Assembly (NCBI GenBank): GCA_963751075.1
Contig: CAVVTE010000003.1
Span: forward strand, 12,510 to 76,509
DNA: 64,000 bases
DNA from: an uncultured Chloroflexia bacterium
GTDB taxonomy: Bacteria; Chloroflexota; Chloroflexia; Thermomicrobiales; UBA6265
Direction: 5' to 3'
The notes below the pieces were generated by a model that saw nothing but the letters and a program-made list of their open reading frames with translations, had not been told where the DNA came from and did no database searches. Within the stretch, counting starts at the first letter, position 1. The number at the start of each line of letters is the position of its first letter. A program made the translations under genes and the position numbers. This document shows, piece by piece, positions 5,648-56,681 of the stretch.

Positions 5648-6598
5648 CTATGACCCTATCACCCTCAAGACATCTCGCGCCTGCGCCTTGTCGACCTGCA
5701 TCTGGGCGATGAGGTCTTCCATCGAGTCAAAGCGAGCGTCAGGGCGGATACGCTCCAGGAACTCGGTTGCAACCGTCTGGCCGTAGAGGTCGCCGTCGAA
5801 ATCGAGCAGGTGGGTCTCGACCATGCGGTCCCCGTCGTCGACGGTCGGGCGGCTGCCGATGTAGGCGACGGCTGGCCGGGGCGTTTGGTCACCCGGGAGC
5901 CAACCCCACGCGGCGTAGATGCCGTCGGCCAGCGGCGCCAGCCCTGCCGGCGGGACGACGTTGGCGGTAGGAAACCCGATGGCGCGTCCCAGATGCTGAC
6001 CATGCACCACCTCGCCTTCCACCCGAAACGGGCGACCAAGGAGGCGCCTGGCGGTAGCGACGTCGCCATTCATGACCGCCGTACGGACGCGGGAGGAGGA
6101 GACGACCTCCTGGCCGTTGGTCAGCCGAGGCACGGCAACCACCCGAAACCCGAGGCCGGCACCAATCTCCGTCAGACGCTCGACGGTCCCCGTACGGTCT
6201 TTGCCAAGCGCAAACCCCTCCCCAACCCACAGCTCCCGCAGGCGCGTTTTCTCCTGCAACCAGGCCATGAAATCCTCGGGCGACCACCGCGAGAGCTCCA
6301 GGGTGAAGGGGACGACGACGATCTCGTCGAGACCGGCCTCGGCGAGGCGCTCCTGCTTCTCTTGCGGCGTCGAGATGCGCCCGGAAAATGCCTCGGGCCG
6401 CAGCACCGCCGCCGGAACTGGTTCGAAGGTAACGCCCGTCACAGGGAGATCGAGCTCTTGACCGCGCTGAACCGCCTGATCGAGGAGACGGCGGTGACCG
6501 CGATGGACGCCGTCGAAGGTGCCAATGGTGACGATTCGCTCGCCTGGCGGCAGGTCGTCCGGGGCAAGCGGGACAGGTATCGCGCGGGGCTCACTCAC
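5648..6598 (-). CDS. ribF: Bifunctional riboflavin kinase / FAD synthetase
   Basis: TIGTFDGVHRGH, VSSSRVR, GRAIGFPTAN, GSRPT, ETHLLDF.GDLYG; follows truB. Confidence 0.95.
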   Translation of the reverse strand: MSEPRAIPVPLAPDDLPPGERIVTIGTFDGVHRGHRRLLDQAVQRGQELDLPVTGVTFEPVPAAVLRPEAFSGRISTPQEKQERLAEAGLDEIVVVPFTLELSRWSPEDFMAWLQEKTRLRELWVGEGFALGKDRTGTVERLTEIGAGLGFRVVAVPRLTNGQEVVSSSRVRTAVMNGDVATARRLLGRPFRVEGEVVHGQHLGRAIGFPTANVVPPAGLAPLADGIYAAWGWLPGDQTPRPAVAYIGSRPTVDDGDRMVETHLLDFDGDLYGQTVATEFLERIRPDARFDSMEDLIAQMQVDKAQARDVLRVIGS

Positions 6599-7686
6599 GC
6601 CGCGCTCCCTTCCTCAACAGCCACGACCTTCCGTGGTCGCCAGCCGGCGCCGTCAGGGGCGGCTTCGCCGGTGCCAAGCCACTCGCCCGCGGTGTCATAA
6701 GCTCGGATCGGACCCGCGGCGCCGCGATCGTCGGGGATCGTCGAGCCCTGCCGCCAACGGCGAGCCGCATCCGAGTCGAGAACGAGCGCCGGCCACTCCT
6801 GGACCGGAATGTCCGGATGGAGGGCGACCCAGGGCCATGCCCAGGGAAGCTCTATCCGGCTCAGCTCGTCCATCGTGAACGCCTGGCAGAGATGGAACGG
6901 CCCGGCGCGCATGCGGAGCAGATCAGAGAGGTAGGCGCCGGTTCCCAGCGCCGCACCCAGATCTCGCGCCAGGGCGCGAATGTAGGTCCCTTTGGAGCAA
7001 TCGACGAGCAAGGTTGCGGTCGGCAGATCCCATTCCAGCAGTTCCAGGCAGTGGAAGATCACCGGTCGCGGTGCGCGGGCGATCTCTTCCCCGCGGCGCG
7101 CCAGGTCGTAGAGTTTTTGACCACCGACCTTGATCGCCGCGTGCATCGGAGGAATCTGCTCGTGGGCGCCGCGAAACGACGCCAGGGTCGCCTCGATCGC
7201 GTCCGCGGTCAGCCCGGTTGCATCTGCCGTGCCGGTGACGCGGCCTTCGCTATCGTGGCTGTCGGTTTCGACCCCAAACGTCACCTCGGCGAGGTAGGTC
7301 TTGGAGGCGTCGTTAAGGAACTCCAGGGTCTTCGTCGCCATGCCCACCGCGAGAGGCAGGACGCCGGTCGCGGCCGGATCGAGCGTGCCGGCATGCCCAA
7401 TATGCTTTTGGCCGAGGAGACGGCGTGCGCGTGCGACGACGTCGAAACTGGTCCACCCGGCCGGTTTGTCGATCACGAGGTAGCCGTGGAGCGAGGGTGG
7501 CGAAGAGGGGAGAGGGGAGTCGCTGCGCTCAGGAGGGAGCGATTCGCTTAGGGAAGGACGGCCGCCAGCGGCCTTAAGGGGGAGAGGAGCACGAGGAATG
7601 TAGGGCTCGTCGTCCTCGCCCCCTTTGCCCCCCTCGAGCGCAGCGACCCCCCTTGAGCGCAGCGACCCCCCTTTGTCCCCCTTCAC
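6595..7686 (-). CDS. truB: tRNA pseudouridine(55) synthase with a repeat-derived N-terminal extension
   Basis: IDKPAGWTSFDVV, GHAGTLDPAATGVLP, CSKGTYIRALARDLG. Confidence 0.95.
   Translation of the reverse strand: MKGDKGGSLRSRGVAALEGGKGGEDDEPYIPRAPLPLKAAGGRPSLSESLPPERSDSPLPSSPPSLHGYLVIDKPAGWTSFDVVARARRLLGQKHIGHAGTLDPAATGVLPLAVGMATKTLEFLNDASKTYLAEVTFGVETDSHDSEGRVTGTADATGLTADAIEATLASFRGAHEQIPPMHAAIKVGGQKLYDLARRGEEIARAPRPVIFHCLELLEWDLPTATLLVDCSKGTYIRALARDLGAALGTGAYLSDLLRMRAGPFHLCQAFTMDELSRIELPWAWPWVALHPDIPVQEWPALVLDSDAARRWRQGSTIPDDRGAAGPIRAYDTAGEWLGTGEAAPDGAGWRPRKVVAVEEGSAA
7514..7671. repeat. Inverted-repeat hairpin element (GGGGTCGCT(G/T)CGCTC family) inside the truB 5' end
   Basis: Left arm GGGGAGTCGCTGCGCTCAGG 7514-7553; right arm 2x GAGCGCAGCGACCCC 7628-7671. 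Confidence 0.75.
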
Positions 7687-7689
7687 CCC

Positions 7690-8727
7690 CTATCCCCCGA
7701 CAACGACGGCGTCCGGCTCCGGGATGGCGGCGACCAACTCGGCAACTGTCTGGATGAAGGCATGTTTCTCCGCGTCACCACCCTCCAGGTGCGCGCCCGC
7801 GGCACGCGGGTGCCCACCGCCCCCGAAGTTGGCGGCGATGGCGGCGACGTCGAGGTTTTTCTCCAGACCGCGCAGGCTGACGCGCCAACCTCGTTCGTCC
7901 TCATCCTGGTAGAGGATGACCGCGACCCGAGAGCCCTGGGTACCGGAAAGGAAGTTGACGATCCCCTCCGCCTCGACCATCTCGGCGCCGCAGTGCCGGA
8001 AGCCTTCGCGGGTCATCTCCGTCCAGATGATCGGTCCGTTCCAGCGGATATTGTGCAGGGCGTGCTCCCAGAGACAGATGGTCGACCGCGGCTTCAGCCG
8101 GAAGAGCTGATCAACCACCGGCTCCAGCTCGGCGCCGCACTCGACGAGCTCGGCGACGGTGCGGATGGTATGGGGCGTGGTAGAGGGGGTGCGCAACCCG
8201 AGGGTGTCACCGTAGATGCCGGCCAGCAGATTGCGGGCCATGTCCTGGGTAACCTCGGTTCCCCAAAGCTTCAGCACCTCGGCGACGATCTCCGCCGATG
8301 ACGACGCTTCCGGCTCGACAATGTTCACATCACCGAAGCGTTTGTTCGTGATGTGGTGGTCGATATTGACGATCGGGATGCCGCCATCGAGGCGGCTCGG
8401 GTCGTCCTTGGCGAAATTGCCGAGCCGCTTGGGATCGGCGCAGTCGATCAGGCAGAGCATGTCATAGTCAGGCAGCTCATCCCGGCCGTAGACCAGCACC
8501 GACTCGACGCCCGGCAGGAAGTGCAGATTGGACGGGAAATCACCGTCGCTGATAAGCGGATAGGCGTCGACGCCATACTGGGCGAGGGCGATCCGCATTG
8601 CCAGCGGCGATGAAAGGCCGTCGGCGTCGACGTTTTGATGCGTCGGCATGAGAACCGTCTTCGCGCCGCGAAGCTTGACGAGCGCGGCGTCGGCATCGGC
8701 GGGATCGATAGCCCAGGAATCGCTCAC
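7690..8727 (-). CDS. nrnA: DHH-family bifunctional oligoribonuclease / PAP phosphatase
   Basis: H.N.DADG, IDC, NIDHH, YGDT, FGGGGHPRAAG; canonical position after rbfA. Confidence 0.9.
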   Translation of the reverse strand: MSDSWAIDPADADAALVKLRGAKTVLMPTHQNVDADGLSSPLAMRIALAQYGVDAYPLISDGDFPSNLHFLPGVESVLVYGRDELPDYDMLCLIDCADPKRLGNFAKDDPSRLDGGIPIVNIDHHITNKRFGDVNIVEPEASSSAEIVAEVLKLWGTEVTQDMARNLLAGIYGDTLGLRTPSTTPHTIRTVAELVECGAELEPVVDQLFRLKPRSTICLWEHALHNIRWNGPIIWTEMTREGFRHCGAEMVEAEGIVNFLSGTQGSRVAVILYQDEDERGWRVSLRGLEKNLDVAAIAANFGGGGHPRAAGAHLEGGDAEKHAFIQTVAELVAAIPEPDAVVVGG

Positions 8728-9161
8728 GCCGTCTCCTCTGGAGTCGAGGAGTCGTGGGGATCGTTGCCGCTGGCAGAAGTCGAGAGGGCCGGATCTTCTC
8801 CTCGACTCCTCGACCCCTCGCCTTCTCGCCTCAGTTCGCGCAGCGTGCGGTCGATCTCCTCAGCGTGCTCCATCGACCGATCGTCCCGGAAGTCGAGGTC
8901 GGGAATGATGCGCGTCCGCATCCGGGGCTTGAGATGGCCGCGGATGTACCCGGCCGCACCCCGGAGCGCGGTCAGGGTCTCTTTGCGTTCGCCGTCAGTG
9001 CCAAGAACAGAAACGTAAATTCGGGCCGAGCGTAGATCGGGGAGCACTTCGACGCGGGTGACGGTCCAGAATCCAAGCCGCGGATCATCGATCTCGGATC
9101 GGATGATGTCGACCACCTCCTCGCGGAGGAACTCGCCCATCTGTTGCGTGCGCCTGGTCAT
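8724..9161 (-). CDS. rbfA: 30S ribosome-binding factor A
   Basis: DPRLGFWTVTRVEV.PDLRSARIYVS, RIIPDL.F.DD.SMEH. Confidence 0.95.
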   Translation of the reverse strand: MTRRTQQMGEFLREEVVDIIRSEIDDPRLGFWTVTRVEVLPDLRSARIYVSVLGTDGERKETLTALRGAAGYIRGHLKPRMRTRIIPDLDFRDDRSMEHAEEIDRTLRELRREGEGSRSRGEDPALSTSASGNDPHDSSTPEETA

Positions 9162-9170
9162 GGCGGACTC

Positions 9171-9265
9171 CGAGAGTCGGAGAGTCGGAGAGTCGGAGAG
9201 TCGGTAAGTGCAAGGCTTTCGTCTCGCCTACTTACCGACTCACCGACTTGCCGTCTTACCGACTA
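9171..9265. repeat. 8-mer tandem-repeat inverted hairpin between infB and rbfA
   Basis: (AGTCGGAG)x3-AGTCGGTAAGT ... ACTTACCGACT-CACCGACT-TGCCGTCT-TACCGACT. Confidence 0.85.
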
Positions 9266-11164
9266 CGTTCGCGCTACCTCTTCGCGGTGGAAGAACTCGA
9301 CCTGATCGCCGACCTGGAGATCGTTGAAATTATCCAGACCCAGACCACACTCGTAACCGGCCGCGACTTCCCGGACGTCGTCCTTGAAGCGCTTGAGGGA
9401 TTTCACCGTCCCCTCGTGGACCACGGTGCCACTGCGCAGCACGCGGGTGCGGCTGTTACGGCTGATCCGTCCATCGAGCACGTAGAGCCCAGCGACCATA
9501 TCGCCGCCTGGCAGCTTGAACGTCTCGCGCACTTCCGCGTAGCCATCAGTCACATCCTGGAAGACCGGCGCCAGGAGACCCGTCATGGCCGCCCGCACCT
9601 CGTCAAGCAGGTTGTAGATGATGTTGTAGAAGCGGATATCGACGCCAGACGCGTCGGCCGCCCGCTTCGCGGCCACATCGGGTCGCACATTGAAGCCGAT
9701 GATGATGGAGCGGGTCGCGGTGGCCAGGCTGACATCCGATTCGCCAATGGCGCCGGTGCCGGCGTACGTGATGCTGAGCTGGACGCCTTCCGGAACATCC
9801 TCATTCAGCTTCAGCAGCGCGGTCTGGATCGCTCCGAGCGATCCGGAGACATCCGCCTTCAGGATCACCCGCAACTCGGCGACGCCGCCCTCGCTGACCT
9901 CTCGCGAGAACTCGGTCAGCTTGAAGGAGCGGTCAGCCGAAAGCGATTCGGCGCGGCGCTCCGCGGTGCGGCGCTCGGCGACCTCGCGGGCCAGCTTCTC
10001 GTCGGTGAAGACCATGAACTGGTCTCCGGCCTGCGGCGCTTCCAGCAGCCCCAGAATCTCGACCGGCATGCTCGGCTCGGCGCGGCGAATCTTGCGGCCG
10101 CGGTCATCGAACATCGCTTTCACGCGCCCCCAGGTTCCACCCGCCACGACCACGTCGCGCGGGTTGAGGGTGCCGCTCTGTACCAGCAGGGTGGCGACCG
10201 GACCGCGGGTGCGGTCGATCCTGGCTTCCACCACCACGCCGGAGGCCGGTTTGAGGGGGTTGGCTTTCAGCTCATGGACGTCGGCGACGAGCTGGATGAC
10301 TTCCAGCAAGTCCTCGAGACCGAGCTTCGCCAGCGCGGAGACCTCCACGAAGGGAACGTCGCCGCCCCACTCCTCCGGCATTACCTCCATCTCGGAGAGC
10401 TGCTGCTTCACGCGGTCGGGGTTGGCGGCCGGCAGATCGATCTTGTTGATCGCCACCACCAGCGGCACCTGCGCGGACTTGATGTGCGCCACTGCCTCAC
10501 GCGTTGTGGGCATGACGCCGTCGTCGGCGGCGACCACCAGCACGGCAACATCTGTTGCCTGCGCCCCCCGGGCGCGCATGGCGGTGAACGCTTCATGGCC
10601 GGGGGTGTCGAGGAAGGTGATCTTGCGGCCCTGGGCATCAACCTGGTACGCGCCGATGTGCTGGGTGATGCCTCCGGCCTCGCCTTCCGCTACGTTGGCT
10701 GAGCGGATGGAGTCGAGCAGCTTGGTCTTGCCGTGGTCGACGTGTCCCATGATCGTGACGACCGGGGGACGTGTCCGGGCCTCCGGATCGAGCTCAGACT
10801 CCGAGCGGCGCGTCTCGAAGCTGTCCCCTTGCCCAGAGAGATCGGATTCCTCCGGGTTGGTCTCCCAGCCGAGCGCCTCCGCCACGCGCGCCGCGGTGGC
10901 ATAGTCGACCTGCTGGTTGATCGTGGCCATCATGCCGAGCTTCATCAGCTCCTTGATGACTTCGACGCCCGTGGTCTCCAGTCGCTCCGCCAACTCGCCC
11001 AGGGTAAGCACCGAGGGGAGCGTGACCGGTTCGCGCACGATCGGCCCGGTTCGGCGCAGGGCAACGGTGCGCGCGCCTCCACGTCCACCCTTCCCGCGTC
11101 CACCTTTCCCGCCCGGACGGCGAGATCCTCCTCCGGGGCGTCTTCCTTGATAAGTGCTTGCCAT
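9263..11164 (-). CDS. infB: Translation initiation factor IF-2
   Basis: [63 protein letters not shown]. Confidence 0.98.
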
Positions 11165-27525: not shown

Positions 27526-27715
27526 GGGGGTACCAGCCGCTATGCGGCTTCAGGGGGTGTCGCTGCGCTCAGGGAGTGAAGGGGGAGAGGACGAGAGGGG
27601 TTAGTCAGATCGGGACAAAAAGCCCCCTTCACCTGTCTCCGACGGGCCGGGTACCCGCGTAGCGGGTGGCGGGTTGGGGGATGAGGGCAAACGCCGCCTC
27701 ACCTATCATGCCCCG

Positions 27716-52246: not shown

Positions 52247-54000
52247 TCACGATGTTCTCAGCCGCGCTGTTTTCTCCTCATCCACCGCGTAATGCTCCGG
52301 CAGTCTGACCAACTGATCCGGCGTGCCTAGGTATCGGATCACGACCCCGTAATCGCGCTCAGCGCTTTCCAAAGACACGTAGCCGGCAACCACATCGGCC
52401 AGGACCGCCTCGACCGGACGATTGAACGGATCGCCGTAGCCGGCGCCGCCCGGCGGGGCCAGCAGGACAGTTTGCCCTGGCTCTAACCCAATGACCGTTT
52501 TTGGTTTGAGCGGACGGCCGTCGGCGGCGAACTCGCCCATGCGCGCCCGGTCCACCTCCCGCGAACCCCTGCGCCGCGAACTTCGTGCGGTCGATCATCG
52601 CCGAGACGCTCCAGGGACCGTCGCCGCGATACCAGTACTCCGTCGCCTGCCCCAGACCACCGCGGGTCTCCCCGGCGCCACCGGAGTCGGTGCGCAACTC
52701 GCGTCGCGATTGCACCAGGGCGGAGAGGCTCTCGATCACCTCGGCCGGCACCCCGGCCACGCCGGAGGGGAAACCGGTCGTGCTCAGACCGTCCTTGGTG
52801 GCGCGGGCTCCCGTGCCCCCGACCTGGAAGATCGCGGTCATGAAGGGCTCGTCGTTCTCCGGATGTGCCCCACGCCAGACGCTGAGCCAGATCGGATCGG
52901 CGCCGCCCGCCAGTAGCCGCTCCGGCAATGCCTGGGCCAGCGCGCCGAAGATGGCGCTGGGGACGAAGTGTCCGACCAGGTGCCGCGCCGCCACCGCCGC
53001 CGGCTCGACGCAGTTGAGGATCGAGCCGAGCGGCGCGGTAACGTGCACCGGCCGGAAGGCCCCTTCGTTGTGCGGCACGTCGGGGGCGACCGCCGCCTTC
53101 AGGGCAAAGGAGGCGTAGCCGTGCGTGTAGTTCAGCACGACGTTGATGCCTCGCCCGCTCTGCGGCGACGACCCGGCGAAGTCGATGTCGATCTCATCCC
53201 CACGGACCGTGACGGTCGCCACGATCACGATCGGCTCCTCGAACCCATCGCTCCAGACTTCATGCTGGTAGACCCCGTCGGGGAGGGAGCGGATCGCCTC
53301 GCGCAGGGCGCGCTCGGAGCGGGCGATGATCTCGTCGGCCAGGGGATCGACGCTCTCCAGCCCGAACTCGTCCATCATCGTCAACAGTGCCCGCCCCCCG
53401 ACGTCGTTGCACGAGGCCTGGGCGTAGAGATCGCCGACCGTCTCGTCCGGGAGGCGGACATTGGCGCGGATGATCTTCAGCAGCTCGTGGTTCGGCTCGC
53501 CGCGGTCGAAGAGCTTCGTCACCGGGACGCGCAGCCCCTCCTCGTAGATCTCGTGCGCCTCCCCGGAGAAGACCTGACCGCCAATGTCCGCCGCGTGGCA
53601 GAGGTTGCCGAAGTAGCCAACGATCCGCCCCTCGCGGAAGACCGGGGTGACGACCGTGAAGTCGTTGAGCTGCCCCGAGGTCATCCAGGGGTCGTTGGTG
53701 ATCAGCACGTCGCCGGGACCCAGCGTCTCGGGGGGATAGGCGGCGAGGAGGTGACGCACGCCGGTGGCCATCGGGTTGATGTGCCCCGGGGTGCCGGTCA
53801 GCGACTGCGCCATCATCTGACCGCGGGTGTCGAACACGCCGCAGGCGAGGTCCTGCGATTCGCGCACGACGGTGCTGAAGGCGGTGCGCATCAGCGCCGC
53901 CTGCTGCTCGTTGGCGACCGAGAGGAGCCGGTTCCAGAGGACTTCCAGCGTCACCGGATCGAGCGGGGTCGCTTCGCTCGAGGGGAGAAGGGGGAGACAC
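52247..54000 (-). CDS. Hydantoinase B / 5-oxoprolinase subunit (frameshift ~52550)
   Basis: LEVLWNRL, RTAFS..VRESQD, GTPGHIN, NDPW, H.ADIGG, EEGL, DSGGAG..RGGLG, GG.GYGDP. Confidence 0.92.
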
Positions 54001-54014
54001 TTCGCTCAGGGGGG
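53965..54014. repeat. Left inverted arm flanking the four-helix-bundle gene
   Basis: GGGGTCGCTTCGCTCGAGGGG...AGACACTTCGCTCAGGGGG. Confidence 0.8.
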
Positions 54015-54018
54015 AGAA

Positions 54019-54431
54019 TCACCGGTTGGCCTCAGTTTCTGTAGATCCACGTAGGCTGCGTAGCAGGCCACGGATCAGGCGACGAACTTCCATCATCTGA
54101 GCCGTCAGCCTTCCGCTCGTATCAGCGTCGCGTAGCCAAGCTGTTCAGCGATCAGCACTTGGTTTCGAGCTCGCATAGCGAACCGTACGCGACAGACACA
54201 TGATGAGCGAACTCACGTGGCCCAGTTCGGCCATGGCCTTCCGCCAGATTCGATGGGATCGAGACCGCAGCTCGTCGTACTTGCGAGGTGAGTCCGTAGA
54301 GCTCCTCACGCGACCAATTCCCGTCGCTCGGTAGACCGCGGTCACTAGGGCCATTGCCTTCTCCAGGCTATCAGTCCTGAAATCCGCTCTTCCGACCCGC
54401 ACCATTCTCCGCCCACCCGTTCGGCGCCCAT
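54019..54431 (-). CDS. Four-helix-bundle protein (23S rRNA intervening-sequence / Avd-like family), frameshifted
   Basis: Joined frames give LIAW.[59 protein letters not shown].ELET....AEQLGY. Confidence 0.85.
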
Positions 54432-56681
54432 CAGTCCGTCAGCCACGACCGCGCTCTTCCCTCTCCCTTTCCCCCTAAGCGAAGCGTCTCCCCTGAGCGA
54501 AGCGACCCCCTCACCCCCCTGCGCAACAACGAGATTCCCTTGATCATCGACCGACACCGTCGCGCCGGGGCCGATGACGGTGGTCGACTCCCGCTCCTCG
54601 ACGATGGCGGGTCCGGCGAATGTGGCGCCCGGTCCCAGCCGGTAGCGGTCGTAGACCGCAACGTCGGTCATTCCGCCCTGCTCTGACACGTACGCCCGGC
54701 GCGTGCCCTTGCATGCTGATGCGGCGTCGCCGGTTGCCTCCGGCGCGGTCGAGAGCCGCAGATCGGGCCGCGGGCCGGACGAAACGACCCGCCAGGTGAT
54801 CGCTTCCACCGGCACCGGCGGACCGAGCCGGCCGTAGAGACGGAGATACTCGGTCTCGAACGCCTGCCGGATCGCCGGAACGCCCGCCGGGGTGAGTGGC
54901 CCCGGCGGCAGCGGCACTCGCACCTCGTGTCCCTGCCCGACATACCGCATCTCGGCTGCCCGGCGGTGGGTCACATCCCGTCCCCGCAGCCCGGCCGAGG
55001 CCAGCAGCATCGTGCCCTCCTCTTCCATCTCCGCCATGAGCCCGTTGACCCGGGCCCAGTCGAGGGTGTCGAGGCGGCCGGGGAAGGAGCGGGTGAAATC
55101 GAAAGCGACCGGCGCGGCCAGGAAGCCGATGGCGCTCATCACTCCGGCGCCGGAGGGGACGATCAGGCGCGGCGAGCCGAGTGCCGCCGCGATGCGATAG
55201 CCATGCACCGGCCCGGCGCCGCCGAAAGCGAAGACCGGCAGCCGCCGCGGATCGCCGCCTCGTTCCAGGGTGTGCACCCGGGCCGCGCCGGCCATGGTCT
55301 CGTTGACGATCTGGTGGATTCCCCAGGCCGCCTCCTCGATGCTCAATCCGAGCGGATCGGCCACGTCGCGGCGGATCGCCTCCCGCGCCGCGTCGACGTC
55401 GAGGGACATCGCGCCGCCGAGAAAGAAGCCGGGATCGAGATAGCCCAGGACCAGATCGGCATCGGTGACCGTCGGCCGCTCGCCGCCACGACCGTAGCAG
55501 GCCGGGCCGGGGTCGGCGCCCGCGGAATCGGGCCCGACCTTGAGCAGGCCTAATGCATCGATGCGGGCGATCGATCCTCCCCCGGCGCCAATCTCGATCA
55601 TCTCGATCACAGGCAGATTGATCGGCAGCCCGGAGCCCTTTTTGAAGCGATAGCGACGGTCGACCTCGAAGCCGTGCGCCAGCAACGGCTCGCCGCGGGC
55701 GATCACTGCGAACTTGGCGGTGGTGCCCCCCATATCAAAGGAGAGCAGATCCTCGTAGCCGGCGGCGGCGCCAAAGGCCGCGGCGGCGAGCGCGCCCCCG
55801 GCCGGACCGCTCTCCAGCAGCCGCACCGGGAAGCGGGCGGCCGTCTCGACCGTCGCCAGCGCGCCGGAGGAGATCAGCATCAGCAACGCGCCGTGGAAAC
55901 CCGCCCGCCCCAGTCGCTCTTCCAGATCCTGCAGATAGCGCTCGACCCGGGCCTGCACGTAGACATTGGCCACGGTCGTCGAGGTCCGCTCGTACTCTCG
56001 GATCTCCGGCACGACGTCGGAGGAGATGGACACCCGGATATCAGGTGCGGCCCGTTTCACGGCCTCCCGCGCACGCCGCTCTAGCTCGGGATTGGCGAAG
56101 CTGTTGAGGAAGGCGATGGCGATTGCCTCGATCCCGGCGGCGTCCAACTCCCGGGCCAGGCGCTCGACGTACTCCTCGTCCAGATCGTGCCCTGGCAGCG
56201 TCGAGCCGTCGGCGAGGGTGCGCCCCGGCACGCCGAAGCGGAGATAGCGCGGCACGAGGGGGCGCGGCATCTCCAATTGCAGGTCGTAGAGGTCGTAACG
56301 ATGCTCGCGGCCGATCTCGAGCGAATCACGGAAGCCCTCAGTGGCAAGGAGCGCCGTCGGCGCCCCCTTGCGCTCGATCAGCGCGTTGGTGACCAGGGTC
56401 GTGCCATGGATGATCTGACCGAGGGCCGACATCGGCGCGTCCGCGGACGCCAGTGTCTCCTCCAGCCCGGTCTCGATCGCCTGCGAGGGATCATCCGGCG
56501 TAGTGAGCGTCTTCCCAACGACGAACGCCCCAGTGGCGTCGTCATAGACGACCAGATCAGTAAAGGTGCCACCGATGTCGACGCCGGCGCGGAGGGAGTG
56601 GTGAGTCGAGGAGTCGGGGAGCCGAGGAGTCGAGGAGGGGTGGAACGCAGGTTGGGCCAATGACTGAAGATTTGCCTTCAA
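54431..56681 (-). CDS. Hydantoinase A / 5-oxoprolinase subunit (ends approximate)
   Basis: GVDIGGTFTD, HGTTL.TNA, REYERT.T, ESGPAGG, DMGGTT, IGAGGGSIA, SAGA.PGPACYGRGG, FGGAGP.H, MRY.GQ. Confidence 0.95.
54471..54510. repeat. Right inverted arm flanking the four-helix-bundle gene (within the hydantoinase A 3' end)
   Basis: CCCCCTAAGCGAAGCGTCT-CCCCTGAGCGAAGCGACCCC, reverse complement of the left arm. Confidence 0.8.

What the first reader, a model, noticed from the sequence alone, without database searches (positions are those of the whole stretch)
7501..7692. Cargo-less copy of the same arm family forms the TruB N-terminus
Seen: arms GGGGAGTCGCTGCGCTCAGG and 2x GAGCGCAGCGACCCC belong to the same family as the arms at 53965/54471. 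They face each other at the nrnA-truB junction with only a ~75 nt spacer. They are in frame with truB and add about 60 residues (MKGDKGGSLRSRGVAALEGG...) before the conserved HGYLVIDKP, with no ATG/GTG in between. Inference: an empty site of the cassette that has been absorbed into a core protein, as with Rickettsia palindromic elements.
Basis: partly seen in the sequence, partly recalled or inferred. Interest (0 to 1): 0.7.

Follow-up and report, generated by a model that had tools for sequence, protein, structure and literature searches.

The report
Hairpin repeat translated into TruB's start
A 198-base selfish hairpin repeat sits exactly between the start codon and the conserved body of the housekeeping enzyme TruB in a soil Thermomicrobiales bacterium, and is most likely translated as a floppy 63-residue head, much as palindromic elements are absorbed into Rickettsia proteins.

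Summary
Window 7494-7691 is one long imperfect palindrome (RNA fold -146 kcal/mol, z -9.5). It carries the named arms and belongs to a dispersed family: 35 loci in this genome, 17 of them complete cargo-less hairpins. The motif was found only in this genus among the relatives searched.

The element fills the gap between the nrnA stop and the TruB core. Only one of its six frames is open, and that is the truB frame. The only canonical in-frame start before the core is the GTG 3 nt after the nrnA stop.

Relatives carry the same stop-3 nt-GTG junction followed by 0, 9, 59 or (here) 63 extra codons, always in frame. One is a metagenome contig in which the GTG is followed directly by Ser-Leu-His-Gly-Tyr. 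So the element most likely lies inside the coding sequence and is translated from a start coupled to nrnA. No RNA or protein data exist to prove this.

Cargo-less is the usual form of the family, not an emptied site. Sister copies do carry a 23S-IVS-type four-helix-bundle gene between the same arms.

It is a new variant of a known kind (RPE/MITE-like in-frame absorption). Interest is moderate.

The parts
7494..7691 (.). Whole hairpin element (198 nt imperfect palindrome; G-rich 5' arm and C-rich 3' arm when read on either strand)
   Evidence: Inverted repeats I1-I3; palindrome extent C3:20003-20200; RNA fold -146.2 kcal/mol, z -9.51; aligns 73% over 177 nt with copy C10:233410-233576
7514..7533 (+).
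7628..7665 (+). Two tandem 19-nt modules holding the two exact GAGCGCAGCGACCCC motifs (7636-7650, 7655-7669)
   Evidence: (D2)
7576..7625 (.). Inner stem (20-nt arms, 85% complementary) with 10-nt apical loop 7596-7605; the in-frame ATT codon 7599-7597 lies in the loop
   Evidence: (I3)
7690..7692 (-). TAG stop codon of nrnA (ORF 7690..8727)
7684..7686 (-). GTG, proposed truB start codon, 3 nt after the nrnA stop and paired in the base of the stem
   Evidence: the same stop-3 nt-GTG junction occurs in L152, L153 and a Logan contig of run X5
7495..7683 (-). 63 element-encoded codons (KGDKGGSLRS...PLPSSPP), the segment absent from the empty-site contig of run X5
   Evidence: AF2 pLDDT below 50 for residues 1-60
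6595..7494 (-). Conserved TruB body from Ser65 (SLHGYLVIDKP...) to the stop; overlaps the ribF start by 4 nt
   Evidence: Pfam TruB_N 1.9e-52; 40 of 41 relatives have a match; alignment A1
7474..7476 (-). Internal GTG (Val71), the only other canonical in-frame start; lies inside predicted strand 1 (residues 68-74)
53959..54510 (.). Sister unit of the same family with cargo: G-arm 53959-53997, broken PF05635 gene (match 54143-54319, minus strand, 1 TGA inside), C-arm 54465-54510. It lies between hydantoinase A and B genes

Best explanation
Window 7494-7691 is a full-length, cargo-less copy of a genus-specific family of G-arm/C-arm hairpin repeats. These normally occupy the few bases between the stop of one gene and the start of the next.

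In this copy the 189 bases at 7495-7683 lie exactly between truB's start codon (GTG 7686-7684, 3 nt after the nrnA TAG) and its second ancestral codon (Ser, 7494-7492). The element is open in that one frame, so TruB is made with a 63-residue Gly/Pro/Ser-rich, disordered N-terminal head in front of an otherwise intact enzyme.

Initiation is proposed to be coupled to nrnA. The ribosome finishing nrnA, or translating close behind the polymerase before the 3' arm exists, reaches the GTG that the folded stem would otherwise bury, and then unwinds the stem as it elongates.

Shown: family membership, anatomy, the single open frame, the lack of any other canonical start before the core, and the in-frame series in relatives.

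Inferred: that the GTG is used, the coupling mechanism, and that the extension is harmless.
For: 1. Family. There are 35 blastn loci in the genome. 17 are complete hairpins of 96 to about 200 nt. The truB copy aligns over 177 nt with another copy. The motif was found in 8 of 16 genomes of the genus and 0 of 25 genomes of other genera.

2. Frame. The element is open in 1 of 6 frames, the truB frame. The 17 hairpins average about 1.6 open frames of 6.

3. Start codons. No in-frame ATG, GTG or TTG lies between GTG 7686 and Val71. Val71 lies inside predicted strand 68-74. That codon is GTC, not a start, in G001, G005, G006, G010 and G013.

4. Conservation of the core N-terminus. Ser-Leu-His-Gly-Tyr-Leu is kept in the sub-clade (Thr for Ser in the G002 group) with only synonymous differences at these codons in G000, G001, G010 and G013.

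5. In-frame series:
- nrnA stop, 3 nt, GTG, then 0 extra codons (one Logan contig of run X5), 9 (L152), 59 (L153) or 63 (this window).
- A GTGA stop/start overlap plus 9-10 codons (L155, L159).
- GTG plus 5 further codons (G005).
- ATG plus 47 further codons (G006).
All are stop-free.

6. The truB frame is the longest open frame upstream of the core in 7 of 7 junctions that carry this hairpin family.

7. The other junctions of the operon are 4-nt stop/start overlaps (rbfA/nrnA and truB/ribF; coordinates), so a start next to the nrnA stop fits the operon.

8. Other genes in this genome show the same absorption. ispF and a NAPRTase have their only start inside the element. HpaB, hydantoinase A and IspD read into an element at their C-termini.

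9. The TruB core is intact: Pfam 1.9e-52, and the GTLDP motif is invariant in A1.
Against: - There is no transcript, ribosome or peptide evidence.
- The GTG and its G-rich leader are paired in a stem of -146 kcal/mol, which should hinder free initiation.
- A single copy open in the needed frame is expected by chance about one time in four.
- The sequence is full of G and C homopolymers and the sequencing platform of this MAG is unknown. Only 7336-7561 was confirmed letter for letter by an independent contig (run X6).
- In G001 the homologous first GTG is out of frame. G008 has no in-frame start, though its truB is split.
- The junctions compared are related, so the counts are not independent.
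- GGGGGTGAAGGGG is itself a family module (11 copies), so the GTG may be element-borne rather than ancestral.
- The AF2 low confidence for residues 1-60 partly reflects the absence of aligned sequences there.
Confidence: 0.6

Rival explanations
1. The hairpin is an untranslated intercistronic spacer. TruB starts at the internal GTG (Val71, 7476-7474) and lacks the first residues of the conserved core.
For: It is the only other canonical in-frame start. Most copies of the family are intergenic, with the next gene's Shine-Dalgarno and ATG after the element: 10 of the 18 Pfam-confirmed genes that touch a copy.
Against: - No Shine-Dalgarno-like run precedes it.
- It would remove half of predicted strand 68-74.
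- The six codons before it are conserved at the protein level.
- The same codon is GTC in five relatives that carry similar inserts.
- It would leave a 213-nt gap in an operon whose other junctions overlap.
Confidence: 0.12
2. Translation starts inside the element at a non-canonical codon, for example the in-frame ATT (7599-7597) in the single-stranded apical loop. Only the C-rich 3' arm would then be translated, giving an extension of about 35 residues.
For: In other copies and relatives a start sits at the apex behind a purine-rich run: ispF, G004 and G007 truB. The loop is the only unpaired part of the element.
Against: ATT is a very rare bacterial start (own knowledge). The nearest GAGGA lies about 13 nt upstream, further than usual. 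The open frame extends well beyond it to a canonical GTG.
Confidence: 0.08
3. The open frame is an artefact or the gene is dead. A homopolymer error in the assembly, or a recent insertion that has inactivated truB (dispensable in E. coli, own knowledge), would make the frame meaningless.
For: There are many runs of 5-7 G or C. The genome is a MAG, 87.5% complete with 4.8% contamination. A SpoU-type methyltransferase next to another copy has no in-frame start at all. G008 truB is split. One contig of run X1 skips 7515-7647.
Against: The TruB core is intact and 92% identical to the nearest relative. A 226-nt contig from another run matches 7336-7561 with 0 differences. In-frame inserts recur in contigs from independent metagenome assemblies.
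Confidence: 0.1
4. On origin only: the hairpin did not transpose in as a unit. It grew in place from a short repeat-like N-terminal tail by module duplication, slippage or gene conversion from other copies.
For: Nearly every member of the sub-clade has something at this site, graded from 0 to 79 codons and built of the same 19-30-nt modules. L155 holds just the two ends of the G000 element. No target-site duplication is seen against the empty-site contig. No Y1/RAYT transposase was found. The closest relative G007 (NrnA 98% identical) carries a different repeat family at the same site.
Against: Copies at unrelated loci are 94% identical over 142 nt, which needs dispersal of whole units. The truB copy aligns end to end with a copy on another contig.
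Confidence: 0.3

Closest known systems
Rickettsia palindromic elements (RPEs)
   Same: Both are dispersed palindromic repeats of roughly 100-200 bp with no transposase of their own. Both end up in frame inside housekeeping genes and add a peptide segment that the protein tolerates. (From the passages of review PMC10969869 read, which cite Ogata et al. 2000; the primary paper was not read.)
   Different: No sequence relation was tested and none is expected. This family is very G+C-rich, with a G-arm and a C-arm. It sits at gene termini, directly after the start codon or before the stop, rather than inside domains. It belongs to another phylum (Chloroflexota, Thermomicrobiales). Sister copies carry a four-helix-bundle gene.
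23S rRNA intervening sequences carrying an S23p ORF (Coxiella, Leptospira)
   Same: Both have a long stem made by terminal inverted repeats, short tandem repeats of variable number, and a PF05635 four-helix-bundle ORF in the loop, often decaying. (PMC4990558, abstract and passages read.) Here, 5 of 6 PF05635 genes in G000 and 4 of 4 examined in relatives lie between such arms.
   Different: These units lie in stop/start junctions of protein-coding operons, not in rRNA helices. The truB copy has no ORF in its loop. RNase III excision is untested, and it would be incompatible with translation through the element.
REP/BIME elements mobilised by RAYT transposases
   Same: Both are palindromic repeats between genes of an operon, with many copies per genome.
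   Different: REPs are 20-40 bp (abstract of PMC3733652 in the listing), whereas these are 96-200 nt compound hairpins. No Y1/RAYT gene was found in this 87.5% complete genome.
Bacterial MITEs (Correia, ERIC, BOX and similar)
   Same: Both are small non-autonomous inverted-repeat elements. In-frame fusions with host ORFs are known for MITEs (PMC10969869).
   Different: No target-site duplication is seen at the truB site against the empty-site contig. No parent insertion sequence was identified. The whole element is a palindrome, rather than unique DNA between short terminal repeats.

Membership tests
G-arm/C-arm hairpin repeat family of this genus (defined here) | Module GAGCG[A/C]AGCGAC flanked by C-runs, present in both orientations | tested here: met
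G-arm/C-arm hairpin repeat family of this genus (defined here) | Single long hairpin of 96-200 nt, G-rich 5' half and C-rich 3' half, apex GGACGA...TCGTCC | tested here: met
G-arm/C-arm hairpin repeat family of this genus (defined here) | Full-length alignment to other copies | tested here: met
   73% over 177 of 198 nt with C10:233410-233576
Rickettsia palindromic elements | Palindromic repeat inserted in frame in a host ORF | tested here: met
   The frame is open from GTG 7686 through the element into the TruB core. Translation is inferred, not shown.
Rickettsia palindromic elements | Sequence similarity to an RPE family consensus | not tested
   No RPE sequence was at hand. I file this as 'works like', not as a member.
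REP/RAYT system | Cognate Y1 (RAYT) transposase in the genome | tested here: not met
   PF01797: 0 matches in G000, which is 87.5% complete; the controls rang in 6 of 14 genomes
REP/RAYT system | Unit palindrome of 20-40 bp | tested here: not met
   198 nt here
MITE | Target-site duplication flanking the element | tested here: not met
   Compared with the empty-site contig of run X5, no duplicated bases flank 7495-7683. This rests on one contig and 30 loose letters.
MITE | Related autonomous element with a transposase | tested here: inconclusive
   The only cargo found between arms of this family is a PF05635 gene, which is not a known transposase
23S rRNA IVS / S23p element | Stem of terminal inverted repeats enclosing a PF05635 ORF | tested here: not met
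   The stem is present, but this copy has no ORF in its 10-nt loop. Two sister units do carry one.
23S rRNA IVS / S23p element | Location in a 23S rRNA helix and excision by RNase III | tested here: not met
   The element lies between nrnA and truB. RNase III cleavage cannot be tested with these tools.
TruB pseudouridine synthase (host gene) | TruB_N domain with the catalytic GTLDP aspartate | tested here: met
   PF01509 1.9e-52; G100-P104 invariant in 26 sequences
Any Rfam family | Score at or above the gathering threshold | tested here: not met
   The best match was 39.1 bits against a threshold of 137, to a plant miRNA hairpin model

The most novel reading that the evidence does not exclude
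The hairpins are the non-autonomous form of a mobile cassette whose full version carries an S23p/IVP four-helix-bundle gene, the same kind of unit known as the 23S rRNA intervening sequence. In this genus the cassette colonises stop/start junctions of operons. Its terminal module (stop TAG, a G-run, GTG) would be an adaptation: it ends the upstream gene and restarts translation at the edge of the element, so an insertion into a coupled junction does not kill the downstream gene but turns the element into that protein's N-terminus.
Probability: 0.2. Interest if true: 0.75.

Novelty: new variant of a known kind. Interest (0 to 1): 0.5.

Why it matters
In-frame absorption of selfish palindromes into core proteins is known mainly from Rickettsia. 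This appears to be a clear case in a free-living soil Chloroflexota lineage, at the very first codon of a universal tRNA-modifying enzyme.

The site offers a natural series of empty, short and long alleles. That series makes it possible to test how such insertions are tolerated and how translation copes with a stem of about 90 base pairs.

The element also affects annotation. Gene callers will either miss the start or predict odd low-complexity N-termini in these genomes.

Finally, the same arms enclose 23S-IVS-type four-helix-bundle genes. This gives a handle on the old question of whether IVS elements are or were mobile.

Tried and rejected
- nhmmer with one arm as query found only itself, so I built the census by motif and by blastn instead.
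- A first script for hairpin limits based on the minimum-energy fold picked wrong stems. I replaced it with local self-complement alignment.
- Rfam gave only sub-threshold matches to plant miRNA hairpins.
- No RNA holder is listed among 24 public runs. The laid runs were contigs only, most of which break at the repeat. One X1 contig skips 7515-7647 with only 23 letters on its shorter side and was not followed up.
- No Y1/RAYT transposase was found.
- No near-identical strain (at least 95% TruB identity) appeared among the 80 best metagenome loci, so a synonymous/non-synonymous test on the extension was not possible.
- No PF05635 gene lies between nrnA and truB in G001, G003, G011, G012 or G014.
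- Literature searches listed no paper on this repeat family, on S23p/IVP genes in operon junctions, or on MITE-derived N-terminal extensions in bacteria. One search listed only rRNA-borne IVS papers. These searches cover open-access PMC and bioRxiv only.
- I considered read-through of the nrnA TAG to give an NrnA-TruB fusion, because the two genes share a frame here. I set it aside: the shared frame is a one-in-three coincidence and is not kept in G005.
Full report
**What is there**

The minus strand of the window carries the operon infB (9263..11164), rbfA (8724..9161), nrnA (7690..8727), truB (6595..7686) and ribF (5648..6598). The rbfA/nrnA and truB/ribF junctions are 4-nt stop/start overlaps, going by those coordinates.

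Between the nrnA stop (TAG, 7692-7690) and the first conserved TruB residues (Ser-Leu-His-Gly-Tyr, from 7494) lie 195 nt. Almost all of this is one imperfect palindrome, 7494-7691:
- outer arms of 55 nt, 71% complementary;
- a 25-nt core, 84% complementary;
- an inner 20-nt stem, 85% complementary;
- a 10-nt loop (extent confirmed).

As RNA on the truB strand it folds into a single hairpin of -146.2 kcal/mol. Shuffled sequences average -101.1, giving z -9.51, and 0 of 200 shuffles fold as well.

The two right-hand motifs are a 19-nt tandem. The distance between the named arms is 102 nt rather than about 75.

**It is a family**

The 15-nt motif is over-represented in the window: 7 hits against 0.81 expected. 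In the genome there are 31 hits against 4 for the reversed control.

A blastn census with the whole element finds 35 loci in the 5.94-Mb genome. Folding and self-complement alignment show that 17 of these are complete hairpins of 96 to about 200 nt with the same plan:
- a G-rich 5' arm;
- an apex of the form GGACGA...TCGTCC;
- a C-rich 3' arm built from 19-30-nt modules, some of them small hairpins of their own.

Because the unit is a palindrome, it reads G-arm then C-arm on either strand.

The truB copy aligns at 73% over 177 of its 198 nt with a copy on contig 10. Two copies in unrelated flanks are 94% identical over 142 nt.

A 17-nt form of the motif occurs in 8 of 16 genomes of the genus, including this one, and in 0 of 25 genomes of 18 other genera of the order. 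Fragmented assemblies probably undercount it. The relatives are soil Thermomicrobiales/Sphaerobacteraceae MAGs.

No Rfam family matches. No Y1/RAYT transposase was found in this 87.5% complete genome.

**Cargo**

The arms at 53959-53997 and 54465-54510 belong to the same family. They enclose a PF05635 (23S rRNA IVS protein, four-helix bundle) gene broken by a TGA.

A second, intact unit at C18:204195-204815 has homologous arms (81-86% identity) and homologous cargo (72% over 333 nt).

Of the 6 PF05635 matches in the genome:
- 2 lie between arms of this family;
- 3 lie between arms of other short-module inverted repeats;
- 1 is unclear.

In relatives, 4 of 4 PF05635 genes examined (G001 twice, G011, G014) also lie between such arms. 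In G011 and G014 the arms belong to the present family and sit between a stop codon and the next gene's Shine-Dalgarno and ATG.

So the cassette picture is real, and the truB copy is a cargo-less member. Cargo-less hairpins are the majority form, however, and the direction of change (cargo lost or cargo gained) is open.

**Is the element inside the truB coding sequence?**

Evidence within this genome:
- The element is open in only 1 of 6 frames, the truB frame. The 17 hairpins average about 1.6 open frames of 6, so this alone is weak evidence.
- The only in-frame ATG, GTG or TTG upstream of the core is GTG 7686-7684, 3 nt after the nrnA stop. The next is the Val71 codon at 7476-7474.
- An AlphaFold2 model built on a 26-sequence alignment puts the first strand at residues 68-74, so a start at Val71 would cut it. 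Residues 1-60 have pLDDT below 50 and no secondary structure. No homologues align there, which contributes to the low confidence.

Comparative data are stronger. In other genera of the family the nrnA stop lies 20-30 nt before the core, and an ATG or GTG sits 8-13 codons upstream of it, next to or overlapping that stop.

Within the genus the spacer ranges from 11 to 380 nt. One sub-clade (G002, G003, G011, G012, G014) keeps a normal start 5-10 codons before the core and holds other repeats upstream of it. In the other sub-clade the repeat abuts the core directly. There the same junction (stop, 3 nt, GTG) is followed by different numbers of extra codons:

| Junction | Source | Extra codons after the start |
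|---|---|---|
| stop, 3 nt, GTG | one Logan contig of run X5 | 0; its 30 loose letters read Ser-Leu-His-Gly-Tyr-Leu-Val-Val-Asp-Lys directly after the GTG |
| stop, 3 nt, GTG | L152 | 9 |
| stop, 3 nt, GTG | L153 | 59 |
| stop, 3 nt, GTG | this window | 63 |
| GTGA stop/start overlap | L155, L159 | 9-10 |
| GTG | G005 | 5 |
| ATG | G006 | 47 |

All are stop-free.

In 7 of 7 junctions that carry this hairpin family (G000, G001, G004, G006, L153, L154, L157) the truB frame is the longest open frame upstream of the core. The nearest in-frame start in these lies 24 to 79 codons away.

Across all 19 junctions scored, 18 have an in-frame start. The exception is G008, whose truB is split. By comparison, 9 of 38 off-frames have one.

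The Val71 codon is GTC in G001, G005, G006, G010 and G013, so it cannot be the general solution.

Results that cut the other way:
- In G001 the GTG next to the stop is out of frame, and a second GTG 20 nt further on is the in-frame one.
- Junctions with the other repeat family, (GGGTGAT)n...(ATCACCC)n, often have an ATG only 5 codons before the core (G010, L156, L158).
- All these genomes are related, so the counts overstate independence.

**The same thing elsewhere in the genome**

I scanned 70 stop-to-stop frames of at least 110 aa that overlap a copy. 18 have a Pfam domain. They divide as follows:
- In 10, a start codon follows the element, so the copy is intergenic.
- In 4, no canonical start lies between the element and the conserved N-terminus. 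These are truB, ispF (its only ATG is at the element apex), a NAPRTase (its only GTG is inside the element) and a SpoU-type methyltransferase (no start at all).
- In 3, the gene reads into the element at its C-terminus: hydantoinase A in this window, an HpaB-type hydroxylase and IspD.
- In 1, a regulator holds a 33-nt module internally.

The module GGGGGTGAAGGGG occurs 11 times. In 4 of these the TAG just before it closes a long ORF.

**Mechanism proposed**

The element sits between codon 1 and the ancestral codon 2 of truB. The start stays coupled to the nrnA stop, as at the other junctions of the operon.

The folded stem would bury the GTG and its G-rich leader. The 16S 3' end is the usual CCTCC type. 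I therefore infer that initiation depends on the ribosome that terminates on nrnA, or on translation keeping pace with transcription. The ribosome's helicase activity would then open the stem.

The product is an intact TruB with a disordered head. Of the 64 residues, 11 are Pro, 10 Gly and 9 Ser.

None of this was measured. No RNA run holds the stretch. The public contigs confirm only 7336-7561 letter for letter (run X6).

**Comparison with known systems**

The element works like Rickettsia palindromic elements and other MITEs that fuse in frame with host genes (passages of PMC10969869). I do not file it as a member: sequence relation was not tested, no target duplication is seen, and no transposase partner was found.

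Its cargo-bearing sisters resemble S23p-bearing 23S rRNA intervening sequences, with a stem of terminal inverted repeats, variable short tandem repeats and a decaying four-helix-bundle ORF (abstract and passages of PMC4990558). Unlike those, they lie in protein operons.

**Caveats on sources**

G012, G021 and G036 are flagged unpublished. They enter the tallies. G021 is also one example of the short junction in another genus and one row of alignment A1. G012 is one of the five relatives and one member of the sub-clade with a normal start. No conclusion depends on them alone.

I did not test it, but it fits the picture of plastic gene termini.

Noticed in passing
window 53959-54510: A cassette of G-arm, broken PF05635 four-helix-bundle gene (1 TGA inside) and C-arm lies between the hydantoinase A and B genes. 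The hydantoinase A frame runs on through the C-arm and into the cargo for about 65 extra residues before a stop.
   Followed up: partly
G000 C18:204195-204815; C19:21317-21631; C10:13523-13834; C4:132952-133122; L232-L235: PF05635 (23S IVS protein) genes sit, as a rule, between inverted-repeat arms made of short tandem modules, at stop/start junctions of operons: 5 of 6 in G000 and 4 of 4 in three relatives. Several different arm families are involved.
   Followed up: partly
G000 C18:300751-300840 (locus L135): A copy lies between ispD and ispF. The IspF domain has its only in-frame ATG at the element apex, giving about 27 extra residues. The IspD frame runs through the element for about 100 more codons. 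One homopolymer indel would make this a fused IspDF with the element in its linker.
   Followed up: no
G000 C18:340682-340822 (L136) and C19:2932-3059 (L137): Two 92%-identical copies lie in paralogous contexts. The SpoU-type methyltransferase beside the first has no ATG, GTG or TTG between the upstream stop and its conserved N-terminus.
   Followed up: no
G000 C22:112328-112464 (L141); C16:106966-107084 (L129): An HpaB-type hydroxylase reads through a whole copy as a C-terminal tail of about 55 residues. A NAPRTase has its only in-frame start (GTG) inside a copy.
   Followed up: no
L010, L013, L015, L016, L017, L029, L156, L158 (nrnA-truB junction of relatives): A second palindromic family, (GGGTGAT)n ... 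(ATCACCC)n, occupies the same junction in other species of the genus. This includes the closest relative (NrnA 98%, TruB 92% identical). It supplies the nrnA TGA stop and often a truB ATG. Related ATCACC-type repeats are also dispersed in G000.
   Followed up: partly
window 27550-27594: A partial copy of the same family (one C-arm with the motif and a small GCCGC...GCGGC hairpin).
   Followed up: no
window 7515-7647 (run X1): One public contig joins 7515 to 7647, skipping 131 nt of the hairpin interior. It may be a deletion allele, another copy or an assembly collapse.
   Followed up: no
L029 (G008 C13:127012-127903): truB of this relative matches in two overlapping pieces with a TGA between them, and has no in-frame start before the core. 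It may be a broken gene or an assembly error.
   Followed up: no
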